Shown here: piece after piece, positions 31,582 to 43,661 of the stretch
Layout: the number at the start of each line of letters is the position of its first letter
Position numbering within the stretch: position 1 is the stretch's first letter
Assembly (NCBI GenBank): GCA_031701365.1
Contig: GCA_031701365.1_4118.1
Reading direction: 5' to 3' (one strand)
DNA from: Escherichia coli
GTDB lineage: Bacteria; Pseudomonadota; Gammaproteobacteria; Enterobacterales; Enterobacteriaceae
DNA: 64,000 bases
Position numbers and translations under genes: made by a program
Notes under the pieces: generated by a model
What the model saw: only the letters and a program-made list of their open reading frames with translations
What the model was told of the DNA's origin: nothing
The model's database searches: none

Positions 31582-32714
31582 CAAATACAGTACTGGCAAC
31601 TCCACCGTCTGTAATATATTGTCCAGTACTGTAAATTTGTATACCATCGGTTAAGTAAGTTCTGTATAAAGTTGCTGTAACATATACGTTATTCATATTC
31701 ATCTCTATTGGTAGTACACATTTGGTATAGGCTGAGACATCTGTTTGTGTACCTATACCTAATTGACCTGCGTTATCGCCTGTGTTATAACCAGTTGCGT
31801 AAACACCTAATGAAGTTATAATATGATTAGAAAAATATGAATAACCCACACTGCTTCTTATTATATCACCTGGTGCTTGTGTTGTTTGTCTTAACGAAAT
31901 ATATGTTTGTGATGTAGAACCATTTGCTAACTGACCAAAGTATTGTCCACCACCATGATATGCAAATAATTTATTAGTACTATTATTATTTGCTATAGCA
32001 AAAGCAAAGTAACTTGAGTTTGTTGTATAATCTTTTACTGTATAGGTATTAGTTATTTGAGAACATAACGTGTACTTTGAATATAACGTCATGTCGGTTG
32101 TACCTACGCCTGATATTGCACCAGTATAATACAATCTCCCATCGGTTCCAATAAATCCTTGCATAAGAAAATTTGCCAGTATTTTGGATGGTGTTACTCC
32201 AGTAGGTACTGTTCCTTGTACAAATGATGAAAGTGAATCGGTACTTCTACCATTTCCCAGTTGTCCATAACTACCATAACCCGTATTCCATATCGTGTTG
32301 TCTGTACATAATACGCTTAATGCACCTGCACTAACTGCAATTTGTTTTATTGTTTTTCCAAGTGCTGTTATTCTATCAAACACTATCTTTGCAGAAGCCC
32401 ACGTTGTTGACTTATCAGTTGATAAACCGAATGATGCACCATTTCCAGCATACCACATCGTATTATCTTTCTTTTTAATTAATGTTGACTCATACCCGAA
32501 CCCATAGATCTTCTACGTTTGTATTGCACAAAACCCATTTGGTTTGTGTTATAATATTACCTATACCCATTTGCCCAAACTCTTGAGAGCCTCTACTGTA
32601 TAGTGTCCCGTCTGACATAAGGGCAAAAACTGTCGTATCAGATGAAGATATTTTGGTAACAGTAGGGGGTAGGTTCTTTTTTGATGATGTGATAATTCTT
32701 CCAAAGGGTAGCAT
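31562..32714 (-). pseudogene. RCC1-like repeat protein paralog R1, frame-disrupted
   Basis: N-terminal fragment (MLPFGR..., ATG at 32714, RBS GGAGGA) aligns to paralogs and ends at a stop near 32490; the remainder continues in another frame (31562-32458). The conserved MxKYGNI segment is missing. Confidence 0.5.
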
Positions 32715-32726
32715 TGTATCCTCCAA

Positions 32727-32786
32727 ATGTAAATCGTTATTATATTTAGGACAAAAAAATGCCAGTACAAGGCACTGGCATAAAAT
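32727..32786 (-). promoter_or_regulatory. upstream cassette of R1 (hairpin plus -10)
   Basis: minus-strand GCCAGTGCCTTGTACTGGC hairpin, T7, TAAATATAAT, RBS. Confidence 0.5.
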
Positions 32787-33956
32787 CTAAGCAGAAGGCA
32801 TATCCTTCATCTTAATAAATGAAAATTGTGTACCAGTATTTGTGGTTTGATCAGTAAAATATGAATTACTCCCAGCCCAGTACAATTCATTATTAACTAT
32901 ACAATATATAACAGAACTCGAACTCTGTGAATACACACGACTTATATTTGATGGTTCTACTCCAGTACTGAACTGAACCGAACCCAACTGTGAACTTGGT
33001 ATCACATCAGTTGGTCTACCTAAACCATTAACACCAGCCCCACCACCACATGTATATACTCCAGTACTATCAGTTGATATATTAACATAACCATTTCCAG
33101 CATTTTCAAATAGTATTTCACTGGGAACAACCCCAAATCCTGTAAGATCTATTTTCCTGAATGTAGTATAAACCGTAGAACCACCAACACCTCTTCCACC
33201 ATAATCATTAGAACCTGCCATATATATACTATATCCAGAACTTCCTAAACATAATAACTGTACGTTGTCATATAATATTTGCATAGATATAACGTTATCA
33301 GGAATACTCAATACCGTAAAAGTAGTTAAAGAAGAACTTCCAATATTACTACCAACCGATGTTCCACATCTGTAGTACTTACCGCCTTTTATATAATGGA
33401 ACGATGAACCGCCTAACTTATGTGCTCCTATTGCACTTACCCCAGTATCTATAAGAATGGGAGATACAACTTTGTTATTAACACCTAACTCAGATCTACT
33501 GTTCATACCGAACCCATATAAACGACCATCTAACATCAATATTAGTGTACTACCGGAAGTACCCGCTGACGTAAATTCTATATTCTTTATTTGCGACACG
33601 TCAATACCTACAAATAATGAAGTTACTTCAGTCCAGTTAACATATGAACCACTAGCCCCAAAATATCCACCCATGTATAGACCTGCACAATATAATTTAT
33701 TATCAACAGTCTTTATTAATGTACCGGATACACACGCCCAAAAATCATCAACTTCATAGGGTACATGTACCCAACCACCTAATACATCACTAGCATCCCC
33801 TGTACCTAATTTATAGTTCGAACCAGAACCACGCATGTACATATTCCCTGTACTATAAAGTAATCCGACATGTAATTGACTACCATCCAATTTCTTTATT
33901 TCAGGAAGAGTTGGTTTAATATTTCCGTACTTGAACATTCTTCCAAAAGGTAACAT
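32787..33956 (-). CDS. RCC1-like repeat (beta-propeller) protein, paralog R2
   Basis: 389 aa; N-terminal MLPFGRMFKYGNI; Gly/Ser/Thr/Tyr-rich repeats; 10 bp after the R3 stop with RBS AGGAGGG and no promoter cassette. Confidence 0.75.
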   Translation of the reverse strand: MLPFGRMFKYGNIKPTLPEIKKLDGSQLHVGLLYSTGNMYMRGSGSNYKLGTGDASDVLGGWVHVPYEVDDFWACVSGTLIKTVDNKLYCAGLYMGGYFGASGSYVNWTEVTSLFVGIDVSQIKNIEFTSAGTSGSTLILMLDGRLYGFGMNSRSELGVNNKVVSPILIDTGVSAIGAHKLGGSSFHYIKGGKYYRCGTSVGSNIGSSSLTTFTVLSIPDNVISMQILYDNVQLLCLGSSGYSIYMAGSNDYGGRGVGGSTVYTTFRKIDLTGFGVVPSEILFENAGNGYVNISTDSTGVYTCGGGAGVNGLGRPTDVIPSSQLGSVQFSTGVEPSNISRVYSQSSSSVIYCIVNNELYWAGSNSYFTDQTTNTGTQFSFIKMKDMPSA

Positions 33957-41340: not shown

Positions 41341-42450
41341 TTATTTTGGTAAATCAATTTTAGTAAAGACTGCAACATCCTCGATTGCACCTGGAATGGC
41401 GTAATAAGATCCAGTACTATACACATCTCCATTTTTGGTTAATATCGATGTCAAACCATCACTAAAAAGAACATCCCTAATATCACTAACTTCAACGGGT
41501 AATTGTAAATTGGTAGCACTATATATAGCACCAGTTTGAGAATTGTTTAATCCCAAACCACGGTTCGCCCCAACGCCCTTCTGATATGTACTAGTAATTA
41601 CCATTTGTGTAGCAGTATTTAAGGCAGGTGAATTCGTCATAAACAACGGAGAACTATTAGGCAAAGTACTTAAAGGAACTGCACGGAATGTAGTCGTACC
41701 TGAACTAAGAAAGTTTGGAGTTTGACCACATACGAAATATGATGTACCATTATAGTAATTTAATGCATTACCACCAATGGCTGCATCGATTACACCAGAA
41801 CTACGCAATCCCCAAGTGTTAATTTGTGTTTGGTTCCCCGTACCATGCTGCCCACTACTATTCCATCCAGAACTATATAGCTTATTATCTAATGTAAGAT
41901 ACATACTATCATTCGCATTGGTCATTACTTTACGAACGTTCGTAGCACATTGAGTTAATGTGTAAATTGATGATGAACCAATACCCAAAGAACCACGATA
42001 TCCATTATCTCCTGCACCATAGAGTACTGAATTAGTGCTAAGTACAAATATTAAACCATTTGTACATACAATATTAGCAATTTCACTTACTGGTATAGCA
42101 TTGGTAAACCAATTAGTTCTTTCAACTAATACAGTACTGTAAGAAGTAGTTGTAGAAGATGAGAACCAGTACGTTTGACCTGATGTCCATATCGTATTAT
42201 CATTTTTAATAATAACAAGTGTACGATCACCCACGAAAAAATTAGAAACATCTGCACTTACTAATATCCATGAAGATACCGTGTTGGTATTACCATTTCC
42301 AGATTCACCACCTTGATTTCTACCTATGTAATATAAATCATGTGAATCAGTCAATAAGAATTGGCCTTGGGTAGAAGCACCAACTTTAATTATTTTTTTA
42401 GGACCAGGGACAATATTTCCATACCTAATCATTCTTCCAAAAGGTAACAT
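41341..42450 (-). CDS. RCC1-like repeat protein, paralog R9
   Basis: start set at the MLPFGRMIRYGNI ATG (42450); its RBS overlaps the R10 stop codon (TAGGAGGGAATATG), so it is translationally coupled. Confidence 0.75.
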   Translation of the reverse strand: MLPFGRMIRYGNIVPGPKKIIKVGASTQGQFLLTDSHDLYYIGRNQGGESGNGNTNTVSSWILVSADVSNFFVGDRTLVIIKNDNTIWTSGQTYWFSSSTTTSYSTVLVERTNWFTNAIPVSEIANIVCTNGLIFVLSTNSVLYGAGDNGYRGSLGIGSSSIYTLTQCATNVRKVMTNANDSMYLTLDNKLYSSGWNSSGQHGTGNQTQINTWGLRSSGVIDAAIGGNALNYYNGTSYFVCGQTPNFLSSGTTTFRAVPLSTLPNSSPLFMTNSPALNTATQMVITSTYQKGVGANRGLGLNNSQTGAIYSATNLQLPVEVSDIRDVLFSDGLTSILTKNGDVYSTGSYYAIPGAIEDVAVFTKIDLPK

Positions 42451-42458
42451 ATTCCCTC

Positions 42459-43661
42459 CTATTGTTGCCATAACTGCGTTGGCATTAATGTTAGTGTAGT
42501 AATACTATAAGTGCCATCTGGCAATCTACCACCATTTCCATTCCAGCCACCACATGCATATAATTTATAATCTTTAGTAATTATTATGGTTCTGCTCCAA
42601 TCTTTAGATGCCATAAGAACATTGTCATAACCACCACTTATTGCACTAAGATTAAAAATATTCCAAGTTCTAACTAATGTATTAGTTCCATTACCTTCTT
42701 GACCATATGAGTTAGCACCACTACTTCTAACATATGGTGCGTATTGTGCCATAGGTGCACCAATTGATGCATTTCCCATATTACTTGGACAAATAAAAGT
42801 ACTGTACTTACTTACATCAACCGTGACCGATGTGTTCCTAATTGGTGTTAGCTGATTTACCGATGTAGTCGTACCATTACCAGCTTGTCCAGTACTGTTA
42901 ACCCCGCTATAATATACAGACCCACCAGTAGTAAACCACCAAGTAACATCGTATGTAGTACTAATATGTTCTACATTACTAATCACGAATTTGTTCAAAT
43001 ATACAACAGAACTACCACCACATCCACTTTCACCAAAGTTATCCTTACCACAAAACCATGCATCTTTATTTGATTTGATATAGTGCGTTCCTTGTAATGA
43101 ACATGCCATATGTGTAACTTCACCCATATTAGTCATAACTGTGAGTGTAGGGATGGAATTTTTATTACCAGAGCCACATTCACCATTAGTATTTCTTCCA
43201 CACGCAATTACTCTACCATCGGTTAATAATATTCTAGTACTTTCACCTATATATACACTCTTGATCATATTAGCCATAACACCTATTTTATTAAATGCAA
43301 CAGTAACATCAGTCCATGTTGTCAAATAACCATTAACAGGTGTTGCATCTCCATAATCAGAAAATGCACCCACAGACCCAGTGTAGTATATTTTATTATC
43401 CAAATCAATCATCAATGAACCTTGAACACCAAGCCAAAAGGCTGCACAGTTCCTTGCAAGTACTGTAAATGACGAAACTGCTGCTGAATTCCCAAGACCA
43501 AATTGATAAAAGTTATTACTACCATAACCATATAAAGTATTAGTTGGGTTATGGAGATACATACAGTTTGTATAATGTTGTTGTAAAACATCTGAGAACT
43601 CTACAGGTTCTGGACCTGGTGCAATATTTGCGTACTTAACCATTCTTCCAAAAGGTAACAT
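42459..43661 (-). CDS. RCC1-like repeat protein, paralog R10 (first gene of the array)
   Basis: 400 aa; MLPFGRMVKYANIAPG; motifs GSNNFYQFGLGN, NTNGECGSGN, NSTGQAGNG. Confidence 0.75.
   Translation of the reverse strand: MLPFGRMVKYANIAPGPEPVEFSDVLQQHYTNCMYLHNPTNTLYGYGSNNFYQFGLGNSAAVSSFTVLARNCAAFWLGVQGSLMIDLDNKIYYTGSVGAFSDYGDATPVNGYLTTWTDVTVAFNKIGVMANMIKSVYIGESTRILLTDGRVIACGRNTNGECGSGNKNSIPTLTVMTNMGEVTHMACSLQGTHYIKSNKDAWFCGKDNFGESGCGGSSVVYLNKFVISNVEHISTTYDVTWWFTTGGSVYYSGVNSTGQAGNGTTTSVNQLTPIRNTSVTVDVSKYSTFICPSNMGNASIGAPMAQYAPYVRSSGANSYGQEGNGTNTLVRTWNIFNLSAISGGYDNVLMASKDWSRTIIITKDYKLYACGGWNGNGGRLPDGTYSITTLTLMPTQLWQQ

What the first reader, a model, noticed from the sequence alone, without database searches (positions are those of the whole stretch)
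32714..43661. Leader conserved at nucleotide level, including synonymous sites
The first about 45 nt of coding sequence (ATGTTACCTTTTGGAAGAATG...TA(C/T)GG(G/A)AATAT) is nearly identical across all ten paralogs while the rest diverges. That includes R2 and R9, which lack the upstream promoter cassette. This points to gene conversion or recombination homology, or to selection on the mRNA 5' end such as a translation initiation structure or RNA-binding site, in addition to any peptide function.
Basis: seen in the sequence. Interest (0 to 1): 0.65.

Follow-up and report, generated by a model that had tools for sequence, protein, structure and literature searches.

The report
Shared N-terminal tag and recombination joint
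Ten very different neighbouring genes of a giant E. coli phage all begin with the same ~40 bases, because that stretch encodes a 13-residue tag that probably directs proteins to the virus particle, and because it is also the joint at which recombination shuffles and homogenises these genes.

Summary
The window is an Asteriusvirus jumbo phage, about 99% identical to slurp01. It carries ten tandem minus-strand RCC1-like propeller genes whose bodies are only 16-34% identical. Nine of them share the first ~38-47 nt, encoding MLPF[G/A]RMxxYGNI. Synonymous difference (pS) is 0.23 in the leader and 0.65 (saturated) in the bodies, and the leader uses non-preferred codons. R10, a frameshifted relic, is the exception.

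Two layers explain this.

1. **Peptide.** The leader is a conserved N-terminal tag. It occurs in several lineages of Rak2-like jumbo phages on four unrelated body types (RCC1, Kelch, LamG-like, Gly-rich). It is modelled as a flexible extension, and its carriers recur in virion proteomes of phAPEC6, CBB, GAP32 and JP4. A virion-loading or docking signal is the likely function; this is inferred.

2. **DNA.** The leader is the coding end of a ~115-135-nt junction: terminator, late-promoter-like motif, ribosome-binding site, leader. Recombination homogenises this junction. Orthologs carry genome-typical leader haplotypes, 44 of 46 homology-block ends fall in the junction, and gene order differs between phages.

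The codon choice also gives unusually little 5' mRNA structure, which is a secondary effect. The closest analogues are T4 PeSL cassettes and the T4 internal-protein capsid-targeting sequence. I rate it a new variant of known kinds, of moderate interest.

The parts
43623..43661 (-). R1 leader (codons 1-13, MLPFGRMVKYANI)
42412..42450 (-). R2 leader (MLPFGRMIRYGNI). There is no own promoter or hairpin; the ribosome-binding site overlaps the R1 stop codon.
41232..41270 (-). R3 leader (MLPFARMVKYGNI)
40021..40059 (-). R4 leader (MLPFARMMNYGNI). Similarity to the R6 leader continues to about nt 47-68.
38801..38839 (-). R5 leader (MLPFARMMNYGNI)
37536..37574 (-). R6 leader (MLPFGRMMNYGNI)
36285..36323 (-). 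R7 leader (MLPFGRMVKYGNI)
35071..35109 (-). R8 leader (MLPFGRMFKYGNM)
33918..33956 (-). R9 leader (MLPFGRMFKYGNI). There is no own promoter or hairpin; the ribosome-binding site follows the R8 stop codon.
32676..32714 (-). R10 leader, diverged (MLPFGRIITSSKK; CTA and CCC codons). It has escaped homogenisation.
42459..43661 (-). R1 gene, 400 aa, RCC1-like propeller
41341..42450 (-). R2 gene, 369 aa, RCC1-like
40131..41270 (-). R3 gene, 379 aa, RCC1-like. The longer ORF reaching 41432 reads through the cassette and is probably not the true start.
38911..40059 (-). R4 gene, 382 aa, RCC1-like
37649..38839 (-). R5 gene, 396 aa, RCC1-like
36395..37574 (-). R6 gene, RCC1-like, split by a 1-nt frameshift about 130 nt into the gene. 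PBECO4 carries the same 59-aa truncation.
35181..36323 (-). R7 gene, 380 aa. AF2 gives a 7-bladed RCC1/UVR8-like propeller with residues 1-20 at low confidence. Its ortholog phAPEC6 gp005 was detected in virions.
33967..35109 (-). R8 gene, 380 aa, RCC1-like
32787..33956 (-). R9 gene, 389 aa, RCC1-like. It is 99.5% identical to phAPEC6 gp010, which was detected in virions.
31562..32714 (-). R10 gene, RCC1-like, split by a frameshift. The same split is present in PBECO4 and 121Q.
41271..41334 (-). Cassette upstream of R3: hairpin GCCAGTAC-AGA-GTACTGGC, T-run, TTAAATATAGTATAAC, AAAGGAGGG ribosome-binding site
40060..40124 (-). Cassette upstream of R4: terminator hairpin, late-promoter-like TTAAATA...TATAAT, ribosome-binding site
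38840..38904 (-). Cassette upstream of R5
37575..37641 (-). Cassette upstream of R6 (4-nt hairpin loop)
36324..36387 (-). Cassette upstream of R7
35110..35176 (-). Cassette upstream of R8 (10-bp stem; loop TCT, the reverse complement of AGA)
32715..32781 (-). Diverged cassette upstream of R10 (hairpin with 1 mismatch, CCTAAATATAATAAC..., GGAGG)
43662..43707 (-). Upstream of R1: GGTAAATATGATATAAC late-promoter-like motif plus AAAGGAGGG ribosome-binding site, without the canonical hairpin

Best explanation
The ~40-nt leader is the coding end of a repeated 115-135-nt junction module. In order, the module holds an intrinsic-terminator hairpin, a T4-late-like TAAATA...TATAAT promoter motif, a strong AAAGGAGGG ribosome-binding site, and the first 13 codons. 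Two forces keep it nearly identical among paralogs that are otherwise about 20% identical.

(a) Protein level. The 13 codons encode a tag, M-[L/I]-P-F-x-[R/I/K]-[M/I/L/V]-x-x-[Y/T]-[G/A]-N. It is conserved across several lineages of Rak2-like jumbo phages and is fused through a Pro-rich linker to unrelated binding domains (RCC1 propeller, Kelch propeller, LamG-like jelly-roll, Gly-rich domain). The tag most likely directs these late proteins into or onto the virion by docking to a common partner. This step is inferred, not shown.

(b) DNA level. Every array gene starts with the same junction in the same orientation, so homologous recombination and gene conversion between junctions homogenise the leader within a genome (concerted evolution). 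The same events delete, duplicate, replace and reorder whole gene modules between phages, and every recombinant stays in frame, tagged and expressed.

(c) A minor contribution: the fixed codon set keeps the region around the ribosome-binding site and AUG poorly structured.

Shown: the nucleotide and synonymous-site conservation, the decoupling of leader from body, the positions of the junction breakpoints, the tag on several folds, and virion detection of carriers in the literature. Inferred: the docking function and the partner.
For: Conservation:
- pS is 0.23 in the leader and 0.65 in the bodies.
- Codon identity is 87% in the leader and 46% in the bodies, with non-preferred codons in the leader.

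Concerted evolution:
- Orthologs with at least 70% identical bodies carry different leader haplotypes, each typical of its resident genome. 121Q has GCA-AGA-ATG-GTT-AAG-TAC, UE-S1 has GGG-AGA-ATG-GTT-AAG-TAC, and EJP2 has GTR-AGG-ATG-TTR-GAR.
- In codons 5-13, orthologs in different genomes are 0.79 identical, paralogs in the same genome 0.775, and paralogs in different genomes 0.743. In codons 14-22, orthologs are 0.815 and paralogs 0.38.
- Neighbouring genes share haplotypes: R4-R6, R8-R9, and GCA in R3-R5.
- All 14 array genes of a metagenomic relative start MIPF, encoded ATG ATA.
- The Pro3 codon is CCT in all 41 genes of the four Asteriusvirus arrays tallied. It is mostly CCA, with variants, in Eneladusvirus and Mimasvirus.
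- The relic R10, with a diverged cassette, keeps MLPFGR but with saturated synonymous sites: pS 0.80.

Recombination joint:
- 44 of 46 homology-block ends against PBECO4, UE-S1, EJP2, 121Q and G17 lie within -50 to +80 nt of a leader ATG, a zone that is 10.7% of the array (binomial 2e-40).
- Module order and content differ between phages.

Portable tag:
- The same leader sits on a Kelch protein (PF24681, 2.7e-22), LamG-like proteins (PF13385, 1.7e-8) and a Gly-rich protein.
- The rV5-like homolog of R1 aligns only from residue 24.
- AF2 of R7 has mean pLDDT 89.6, but residues 1-20 score 48-63.

Virion association:
- phAPEC6 Table 1 lists gp003, 005, 006, 007, 009, 010, 549 and 551 (PMC7247149). 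gp010 is 99.5% identical to R9 and gp005 is 89.6% identical to R7.
- CBB_548, 549, 551, 552 and 553 were detected with 2-7 peptides (PMC5259590). All of CBB_548-554 start MLPF.
- GAP32_001 and GAP32_002.
- JP4_577 and JP4_581.

Late-type promoter: the ATAAATA consensus precedes structural genes of CBB and GAP32 (PMC5259590), and TAAATA lies in the cassettes here.

Low 5' mRNA structure.
Against: - No experiment shows that the tag is needed for virion incorporation.
- The phAPEC6 virion list also contains clear non-structural proteins (thymidylate synthase, SSB, a RecA-like protein). The RCC1-like proteins have low coverage there (3-17%), and the JP4 hits are single peptides. Carry-over of abundant late proteins is therefore not excluded.
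- The excess of same-genome over different-genome paralog identity in the leader is small (0.775 against 0.743). Much of the homogeneity reflects a haplotype pool shared between phages rather than strictly intragenomic conversion.
- The first 12 nt (ATG TTA CCT TTT) are invariant in 61 Asteriusvirus genes, and TTA is almost universal across the genera sampled. Conversion alone does not obviously predict this, so some direct nucleotide-level selection near the start codon remains possible.
- No docking partner has been identified.
Confidence: 0.7

Rival explanations
1. The nucleotide identity is maintained mainly by direct selection on the mRNA 5' end. Either the region must stay unstructured for efficient initiation at a short 5' UTR, or it is a shared operator for a translational repressor or RNA-binding protein that co-regulates all paralogs. 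Recombination is only a by-product.
For: - In all ten genes the real UTR plus leader is less structured than codon-usage-weighted synonymous recodings. Examples: R3 -6.6 against -13.5±2.8 kcal/mol; R7 -7.4 against -13.2±2.7. z ranges from about +0.4 to +2.5.
- The 31 control genes have mean z +0.38; only 6% exceed 1.5 and none exceed 2.
- Nt 1-12 are invariant in 61 Asteriusvirus genes, and TTA at codon 2 is nearly universal across the genera sampled.
- R2 and R9 keep the leader without the promoter cassette.
Against: - The ten leaders are not independent observations.
- Many other synonymous versions would be equally unstructured, so low structure does not explain identity.
- CBB, the Eneladusvirus phages and the metagenomic relative keep the peptide with CCA/CCT/CCG, TTT/TTC and AGA/AGG variants within one genome.
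- EJP2 varies at AGA/AGG, TAT/TAC and GGG/GGA.
- Orthologs swap whole leader haplotypes.
- There is no Rfam match.
- Variation inside the leader is largely non-synonymous at codons 5, 8 and 9, which a fixed RNA operator would not tolerate.
Confidence: 0.15
2. The tag is a capsid-targeting sequence in the strict T4 sense. It would bind the scaffolding core so that the diverse propeller and lectin proteins are packed inside the head and injected with the DNA, for example as inhibitors of host defences. This is a sub-hypothesis of the best explanation and an alternative to external docking on fibres or the capsid surface.
For: - The architecture matches T4 internal proteins: a short conserved N-terminal peptide on otherwise diverse proteins encoded in a polymorphic locus (PMC3012670).
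- phAPEC6 has an inner body of unknown composition, and its authors proposed the RCC1-like proteins as candidates (PMC7247149).
- Each paralog is present at low abundance in virions.
- In several lineages residue 9 is Glu preceded by [L/I]-x (CBB LIE, LVE, INE; pEa49 IVE, ISE). This resembles the T4 prohead-protease motif, which I know from general knowledge rather than from a tool result.
Against: - The window leaders have K, N or R at residue 9 and no Glu, so a T4-type cleavage site is not conserved.
- There is no sequence similarity to the T4 capsid-targeting sequence.
- Kelch, RCC1 and LamG-like domains are typical surface ligand-binding modules. phAPEC6 and CBB carry unexplained hair-like fibres with globular tips on the tail and capsid.
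- No ejection or packaging data exist.
Confidence: 0.25
3. The leader is simply a structural element of the fold, for example the N-terminal 'velcro' strand that closes the RCC1 propeller. It would then be conserved for folding, and the nucleotide identity would reflect recent duplication.
For: RCC1-type propellers are commonly closed by terminal strands (general knowledge). The paralogs are tandem duplicates.
Against: - AF2 models the propeller from about residue 21 with high confidence, while residues 1-20 have pLDDT 48-63 and are not part of a blade.
- The same leader occurs on Kelch, LamG-like and Gly-rich proteins.
- It is absent from the rV5-like homolog of R1 and from cellular RCC1 homologs.
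- The bodies are 16-34% identical with saturated pS, so the duplications are ancient.
Confidence: 0.03

Closest known systems
PeSL (promoter-early stem-loop) regulatory cassettes of T4-type phages (Arbiol et al. 2010, PMC2839356; Comeau et al. 2014, PMC4122927)
   Same: - Both are a composite intergenic cassette: terminator stem-loop, AT-rich promoter, ribosome-binding site, ATG.
- Both are repeated in the same orientation between non-essential genes of a hyperplastic region.
- In both, indels, replacements and reordering between close relatives have their breakpoints in the cassettes.
- Both keep each gene module transcriptionally self-contained.
   Different: - The host phage is a Rak2-like jumbo phage (Asteriusvirus), not a T4-type phage.
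- The promoter motif resembles the late TAAATA type plus a -10 element, not a full sigma-70 early consensus.
- The stem is GCCAGTAC/GTACTGGC rather than GGGG...CCCC.
- The repeat extends about 40 nt into the coding sequence, so the crossover zone includes an in-frame peptide tag.
- All modules belong to one functional class.
- Mini-circles have not been tested.
Capsid-targeting sequence (CTS) of T4 internal proteins and the polymorphic ip locus (Repoila et al. 1994, as cited in PMC3012670)
   Same: - A short (about 10-13 aa) conserved N-terminal peptide sits on otherwise highly diverse proteins.
- The proteins are encoded in a polymorphic, shuffled locus.
- The carriers are found in virions.
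- The tag is portable in principle.
   Different: - There is no sequence similarity (MKTYQEFIAE against MLPFGRMVKYGNI).
- No prohead-protease site is conserved in the window leaders.
- The cargoes are 25-45 kDa propeller or lectin domains rather than small basic proteins.
- An internal location has not been shown, and external docking is at least as likely.
Conserved N-terminal anchor modules of exchangeable tail-fibre and tailspike proteins in phages with several receptor-binding proteins, such as CBA120, G7C and the K1-5 types (from my own knowledge, not tested here)
   Same: A conserved N-terminus docks onto the particle while the divergent C-terminal binding domain is exchanged by recombination at the domain boundary.
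   Different: Those anchors are folded domains of roughly 100 residues or more on trimeric fibres. Here the conserved part is a 13-residue peptide on apparently monomeric propellers, and 10-15 versions coexist in one genome.
RCC1 / UVR8 / RPGR-type seven-bladed beta-propellers (PF00415, PF25390)
   Same: The bodies of R1-R10 match the Pfam RCC1 models. The AF2 model of R7 superposes on UVR8, RPGR, HERC2 and RCC1 with TM about 0.65-0.75.
   Different: Only the fold is shared, at 13-19% identity. There is no evidence for GEF or chromatin function. The database label 'DNA condensation protein' is a name transfer.

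Membership tests
PeSL cassettes (T4-type phages) | Composite of a terminator stem-loop followed by a promoter and ribosome-binding site, immediately upstream of an ORF | tested here: met
   A hairpin with a T-run, then TTAAATATAGTATAAT, then AAAGGAGGG, lies upstream of R3-R8, and in diverged form upstream of R10. The terminator scan found 16 sites against 6.1 expected.
PeSL cassettes (T4-type phages) | Promoter matches the sigma-70 early consensus (-35 TTGACA and -10 TATAAT) | tested here: not met
   A -10-like TATAAT is present, but there is no -35 at 16-18 nt. The sigma-70 scan was not enriched (65 found, 80.9 expected) and did not pick out the cassettes. The motif resembles the ATAAATA late consensus reported for CBB and GAP32.
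PeSL cassettes (T4-type phages) | Breakpoints of insertions, deletions and replacements between related phages lie in the cassettes | tested here: met
   44 of 46 block ends lie within -50 to +80 nt of a leader ATG. Module order differs among six phages.
PeSL cassettes (T4-type phages) | Recombination between neighbouring cassettes yields mini-circles | not testable with these tools
   This needs inverse PCR or long-read sequencing of infected cells or lysates.
T4 internal-protein capsid-targeting sequence | A short conserved N-terminal peptide shared by otherwise unrelated proteins of one phage | tested here: met
   The MLPF or MIPF tag is found on RCC1, Kelch, LamG-like and Gly-rich proteins.
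T4 internal-protein capsid-targeting sequence | Sequence homology to the T4 capsid-targeting sequence, and removal by the prohead protease at an (L/I)-x-E site | tested here: not met
   There is no similarity to the T4 sequence. The window leaders contain no Glu. Only some CBB, Eneladusvirus and EJP2 leaders have [L/I/M]-x-E at residues 7-9. Cleavage itself was not tested.
T4 internal-protein capsid-targeting sequence | Carriers are packaged in the virion, inside the head | tested here: inconclusive
   Virion MS detects the carriers in phAPEC6, CBB, GAP32 and JP4. Their location, inside or outside, is unknown, and the phAPEC6 list contains likely contaminants.
RCC1-like repeat propeller (PF00415 / PF13540 / PF25390) | Pfam match and a seven-bladed propeller fold | tested here: met
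   All ten bodies hit PF25390 (E 1e-9 to 1e-29), although below its whole-domain cut-off. Several exceed the RCC1 or RCC1_2 repeat cut-offs. AF2 gives pLDDT 89.6, and Foldseek hits UVR8, RPGR and RCC1 with E 1e-15 to 1e-20.
Concerted evolution (gene conversion) of a segment within a tandem gene family | In the segment, paralogs within a genome are as similar as orthologs between genomes, while flanking sequence follows orthology. Variants are shared genome-wide or by neighbours. | tested here: met
   The natural control is R10.
Known structured RNA family (Rfam 15) | Covariance-model match at or above the gathering score | tested here: not met
   The only hit is a sub-threshold one (22.6 bits against 50, E 0.79) at the R10 hairpin.

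The most novel reading that the evidence does not exclude
The 13-residue M[L/I]PF tag is a general, transferable virion-loading signal of Rak2-like jumbo phages. Any domain fused behind it gets docked to one common site on or in the particle. Its coding DNA, together with the terminator, late-promoter and ribosome-binding-site cassette, is the in-frame recombination joint. Together they would form a built-in combinatorial cassette system. With it, the phage and its relatives would continuously swap a repertoire of 7-15 virion accessory binding proteins, acting as host-range or adsorption factors or as injected anti-defence binders.
Probability: 0.4. Interest if true: 0.75.

Novelty: new variant of a known kind. 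Interest (0 to 1): 0.55.

Why it matters
- It gives a concrete, testable role to the puzzling 'RCC1 / DNA condensation' paralog arrays that fill 10-17 kb of the E. coli jumbo phages now being isolated for therapy. They would be a shuffled set of tagged virion accessory proteins, not chromatin regulators.
- The tag links proteins of four unrelated body types in several lineages into one functional class. It points to an unidentified common docking partner, possibly related to the unexplained hair-like fibres or to the inner body.
- If the tag is sufficient for incorporation, it becomes a 13-residue handle for loading cargo onto or into jumbo phage particles.
- It extends the idea of cassette-mediated modular shuffling beyond T4-type phages, to a case where the recombination joint reaches into the coding sequence.
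- It flags systematic mis-called start codons in the database records.

Tried and rejected
- **Recent duplication as the cause of identity.** Rejected. The bodies are 16-34% identical with saturated pS.
- **Codon bias as the cause.** Rejected. The leader uses minority codons, and body codon identity at conserved residues equals the usage expectation.
- **Velcro strand of the propeller.** Rejected by AF2 and by the tag's presence on other folds.
- **Known RNA element.** Rfam at E up to 1 gave only one sub-threshold hit.
- **Sigma-70 promoter.** The consensus scan was not enriched and did not pick out the cassettes.
- **Secretion or lipoprotein signal.** By inspection the leader is too short and polar, with no hydrophobic core or lipobox. 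No dedicated predictor was run.
- **T4-type protease site in the leader.** Absent from the window leaders and present in only some lineages.
- **IMG/VR pattern scans.** The first, with a fixed ribosome-binding-site spacing, gave only 3 loci, none of them informative in the follow-up ORF check. The second recovered only 121Q, GAP32, CBB and an Eneladusvirus-like genome, so no carriers outside Rak2-like jumbo phages were found.
- **Literature searches.** Searches for 'MLPF' or for a described leader in these phages found nothing relevant.
- **Ungapped upstream-extent matrix**. It underestimates cassette similarity because of 1-nt spacer indels, so it was used only for the downstream boundary.
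- **Not attempted:** identification of the docking partner, since no complex-prediction tool was available.

Full report
**What the window is.** Region 32400-43900 is 99% identical over 98% of its length to Escherichia phage vB_Eco_slurp01. Parts of it are 97-98% identical to PBECO4, SHEFM2K, SP27, 121Q and other Asteriusvirus jumbo phages of about 350 kb. Coverage of the region in these relatives ranges from 25% to 98%. The finding lies in a minus-strand island, marked by a GC-skew flip at about 32-48 kb, among plus-strand small genes.

**The ten genes.** The island holds ten tandem genes, R1 to R10, with ATGs at 43661, 42450, 41270, 40059, 38839, 37574, 36323, 35109, 33956 and 32714. All have RCC1-like bodies (PF25390, PF00415, PF13540). 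R6 and R10 are split by frameshifts. PBECO4 shows the same truncations for both, and 121Q for R10, so they look like inherited pseudogenes rather than sequencing errors.

**Checking the observation.**
- The 21-mer ATGTTACCTTTTGGAAGAATG occurs ten times with at most 3 mismatches, against none expected.
- Beyond the leader, the ten proteins are 16-34% identical.
- For R1-R9, codon identity at identical degenerate residues is 87% (268/307) in the leader and 46% (1140/2476) in the bodies. The body value is what codon usage predicts.
- Nei-Gojobori pS is 0.23 in the leader and 0.65 in the bodies, which is saturation. pN is 0.09 and 0.60.
- The invariant leader codons are not the preferred ones: CCT 30%, GGA 21%, GGG 11%, AAG 27%, TAC 25%.
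- Pairwise similarity ends 38-47 nt after the ATG.
- R2 and R9 lack the hairpin and promoter cassette. They keep AGGAGGGAAT-ATG and the leader, and each starts 8-10 nt after the stop codon of the preceding gene.

First, R10 shares only about 20 nt with three mismatches, including the synonymous changes CTA and CCC, and its leader pS against the others is 0.80. Second, codons 5 and 8-11 are polymorphic and fall into a few haplotypes.

**Anatomy of the repeat.** The leader is the 3' end of a longer repeat of 114-136 nt. From 5' to 3' on the minus strand it contains:
- a perfect hairpin GCCAGTAC-NNN-GTACTGGC followed by TTTCTTATTT, which is terminator-like (16 such sites against 6.1 expected);
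- TGTATTAAATATAGTATAATGAAT;
- AAAGGAGGG, 4-5 nt before the ATG;
- thirteen codons encoding MLPF[G/A]RM[V/M/F/I][K/N/R]Y[G/A]N[I/M];
- a Pro-rich stretch (AP-x-P), after which each gene goes its own way.

The cassette is specific to this array within the window. It has no sigma-70 -35 element. It does contain TAAATA about 25-30 nt before the ATG. The same motif precedes leader-bearing genes in UE-S1, GAP32, CBB, Eneladusvirus-type phages and a metagenomic relative. [quoted passage not shown] Late expression is thus inferred, not shown.

**The leader is decoupled from the gene bodies.** I collected 61 leader-bearing genes from six Asteriusvirus arrays: the window, PBECO4, G17, 121Q, UE-S1 and EJP2. 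I grouped them by body orthology, defined as at least 70% amino-acid identity.
- Orthologs carry different leader haplotypes, and each haplotype is the one common in its resident genome. For the R4 group, the window, PBECO4 and G17 have GCA AGA ATG ATG AAT TAT. 121Q has GCA AGA ATG GTT AAG TAC. UE-S1 has GGG AGA ATG GTT AAG TAC. EJP2 has GCG AGG ATA TTG GAG TAC. From codon 14 onward the sequence follows orthology.
- In codons 5-13, orthologs in different genomes are 0.79 identical, paralogs within a genome 0.775, and paralogs between genomes 0.743. In codons 14-22, orthologs are 0.815 and paralogs 0.38.
- Within the window, neighbouring genes share variants: ATG-AAT-TAT in R4-R6, TTC-AAG-TAC in R8-R9, and GCA in R3-R5. 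The combinations are mosaic.
- R4 and R6 are 90% identical over a 114-nt copy that spans the cassette and the first codons. Their ungapped similarity runs 47 nt past the ATG, although their bodies are 22% identical.
- A 361-kb metagenomic phage has 14 array genes that all begin MIPF (ATG ATA), a change shared by every paralog.
- Pro3 is CCT in all 41 genes of the four Asteriusvirus arrays tallied, but mostly CCA, with CCT, CCG and CCC variants, in CBB, GAP32 and Eneladusvirus.

Together with the R10 control, this is the signature of concerted evolution by recombination or gene conversion. It is not the signature of a universal nucleotide-level constraint.

**The junction is where arrays are rearranged.** I ran blastn of the window array against the five other arrays. 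The homology blocks are whole gene modules. Of 46 block ends inside the array, 44 lie between 50 nt inside a leader and 80 nt upstream of its ATG. That zone makes up 10.7% of the array (binomial 2e-40). One of the two exceptions is the array end itself. Module content and order differ between phages:
- window: R1-R2-R3-R4-R5-R6-R7-R8-R9-R10;
- PBECO4: R8 and R9 replaced by two other genes;
- G17: x-R1-R2-x-R4-R3'-R5-Gly-x-R8-x-R9;
- 121Q: R4-R3'-R2-R3-R5-Gly-R4''-R7-...;
- UE-S1: R4-x-x-R2-R7-Gly-R5-x-R3'.

HSPs necessarily run into shared repeats, so the real point is that no breakpoints fall inside gene bodies. The UE-S1 record itself annotates about 104-nt 'repeat_region' features over the cassette plus leader.

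**The peptide is a portable tag.**
- The same N-terminus occurs on non-RCC1 proteins. These are a Gly-rich 245-aa protein (121Q_243, G17_00077, UE-S1_207; phrog_4474), a Kelch propeller (EJP2_508; PF24681, 2.7e-22), and LamG-like proteins (pEa_SNUABM_49, PF13385 1.7e-8; GAP32_002, 8.6e-4, phrog_6011 'virion structural protein').
- In Pectobacterium phage CBB the whole minus-strand array CBB_548-554 consists of LamG-like and Kelch proteins, with no RCC1 protein, and every one starts MLPF.
- The metagenomic phage mixes RCC1, Kelch, LamG-like and unknown bodies behind MIPF.
- rV5-like phages have a homolog of R1 at 37% identity that aligns only from residue 24. Cellular RCC1 homologs lack the leader.
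- The AF2 model of R7 (19-sequence alignment, mean pLDDT 89.6, pTM 0.87) is a seven-bladed propeller most similar to UVR8, RPGR and RCC1. Residues 1-20 have pLDDT 48-63 and are not part of a blade.

The leader is therefore a flexible N-terminal extension, not a fold element.

**Carriers are found in virions.**
- The phAPEC6 structural proteome lists eight RCC1-like 'DNA condensation' proteins: gp003, 005, 006, 007, 009, 010, 549 and 551, with 1-5 unique peptides each (PMC7247149). The six of them encoded in the stretch I fetched (gp003-gp010) all start MLPF. gp010 is 99.5% identical to R9, and gp005 is 89.6% identical to R7.
- In CBB, CBB_548, 549, 551, 552 and 553 were detected with 5, 6, 4, 2 and 7 peptides and up to 51% coverage (PMC5259590).
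- GAP32_001 was identified by MS according to the CBB paper, and GAP32_002 is annotated as a virion structural protein.
- JP4_577 and JP4_581 appear in the JP4 virion LC-MS/MS table, each with a single peptide (PMC12648861).

One caveat applies. The phAPEC6 list also includes obviously non-structural proteins, so co-purification of abundant late proteins is not excluded.

From the tag on several folds, the late-type promoter and the repeated virion detection, I infer that the tag is a virion-incorporation or docking signal, with probability about 0.55-0.6. Whether the cargo sits inside or outside the particle is open. It could be inside, like T4 internal proteins (the phAPEC6 authors suggested the inner body). 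It could be outside, for example on the unexplained hair-like fibres of phAPEC6 and CBB. The window leaders lack the Glu that a T4-type prohead-protease site would need, although several CBB, Eneladusvirus and EJP2 leaders have [L/I/M]-x-E at residues 7-9.

**mRNA-level selection.** With either a 24-nt or a 10-nt 5' UTR, the real sequence is less structured than 300 codon-usage-weighted synonymous recodings in all ten genes. Examples are R3 at -6.6 against -13.5±2.8 kcal/mol and R7 at -7.4 against -13.2±2.7. z ranges from about +0.4 to +2.5, with a mean of about +1.5. For 31 other genes of the window the mean z is +0.38 (sd 0.89), 6% exceed 1.5 and none exceed 2.

The fixed codon set is therefore a good solution for keeping a very strong ribosome-binding site and the AUG accessible. 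The invariance of nt 1-12 in 61 Asteriusvirus genes, and of TTA at codon 2 in nearly all the genera sampled, may reflect this. But the ten leaders are essentially one observation. Many other codon sets would also be unstructured. Relatives tolerate synonymous variants. No Rfam family matches. I treat this as a secondary contribution.

**Comparison with what is known.** At the DNA level the system works like the PeSL cassettes of T4-type phages. [quoted passage not shown] It is not a member of that family. The phage lineage differs, there is no sigma-70 early consensus, the stem differs, and the repeat extends into the coding sequence.

[quoted passage not shown] There is no sequence homology, no conserved cleavage site, and no shown internal location.

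The multiplicity of RCC1-like genes in these phages has been noted before. In the library searched I found no description of the shared leader, of its presence on other folds, or of its role as a recombination joint.

**Verdict.** The fuller picture is a tag-plus-cassette junction that is both a probable virion-loading signal and the in-frame linker for modular shuffling. I rate it a new variant of known kinds, with interest 0.55.

Noticed in passing
window 43765-45207 (+ strand): Seven tandem ORFs of about 60-75 aa lie directly beside the array and are transcribed divergently from it. They look like paralogs of one another, with similar C-termini (...LNLIFKF, VLKLIEM, VMKLIAI, ILALASI). 121Q annotates about 17 such small genes (121Q_249-265).
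   Followed up: no
window 35154-35176, 36369-36387, 38886-38904, 40106-40124, 41316-41334: The terminator hairpins have a perfectly palindromic stem. The loop is AGA upstream of R3, R5 and R7, TCT (its reverse complement) upstream of R8, ACT upstream of R4, and TTCA upstream of R6. This looks like inversion of the hairpin.
   Followed up: no
window 36395-37574 (R6) and 31562-32714 (R10): Both genes are interrupted by frameshifts. PBECO4 shows the same truncations for both, and 121Q for R10. R10 also has a diverged cassette and a leader with saturated synonymous divergence. They are probably decaying pseudogenes, but programmed frameshifting was not excluded.
   Followed up: partly
window ORFs 35181-36389, 40131-41432, 41341-42471; L020 phAPEC6 gp002; JP4_581: The longest ORFs, and several database annotations, start upstream of the MLPF ATG and read through the terminator and promoter cassette (for example '...MPVQSTGFLICIKYSIMNKGG-MLPF'). 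These are probably mis-called start codons.
   Followed up: partly
L021 6-14910 (ENA ERZ28586991 scaffold_3, 361 kb): An uncultured jumbo phage has a 14-gene array mixing RCC1, Kelch, LamG-like and unknown bodies. Every gene starts MIPF (ATG ATA CCN TTT) rather than MLPF. Neighbouring genes share leader haplotypes.
   Followed up: partly
L019 1673-6941 (CBB_548-554): The CBB array of MLPF-tagged LamG-like and Kelch proteins lies next to the 22-kb terminal repeat. GAP32_001 and GAP32_002 lie at the very start of the GAP32 record. The tagged-gene arrays therefore sit close to the ends of these two records.
   Followed up: no
window 30919-31581 (+ strand): A 220-aa ORF converges on the end of the array, and equivalents are annotated in PBECO4, 121Q and UE-S1. 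At the corresponding position CBB has a DUF1190 membrane protein and fHe-Yen9-04 a 'possible lipoprotein'. Homology between these neighbours was not checked.
   Followed up: no
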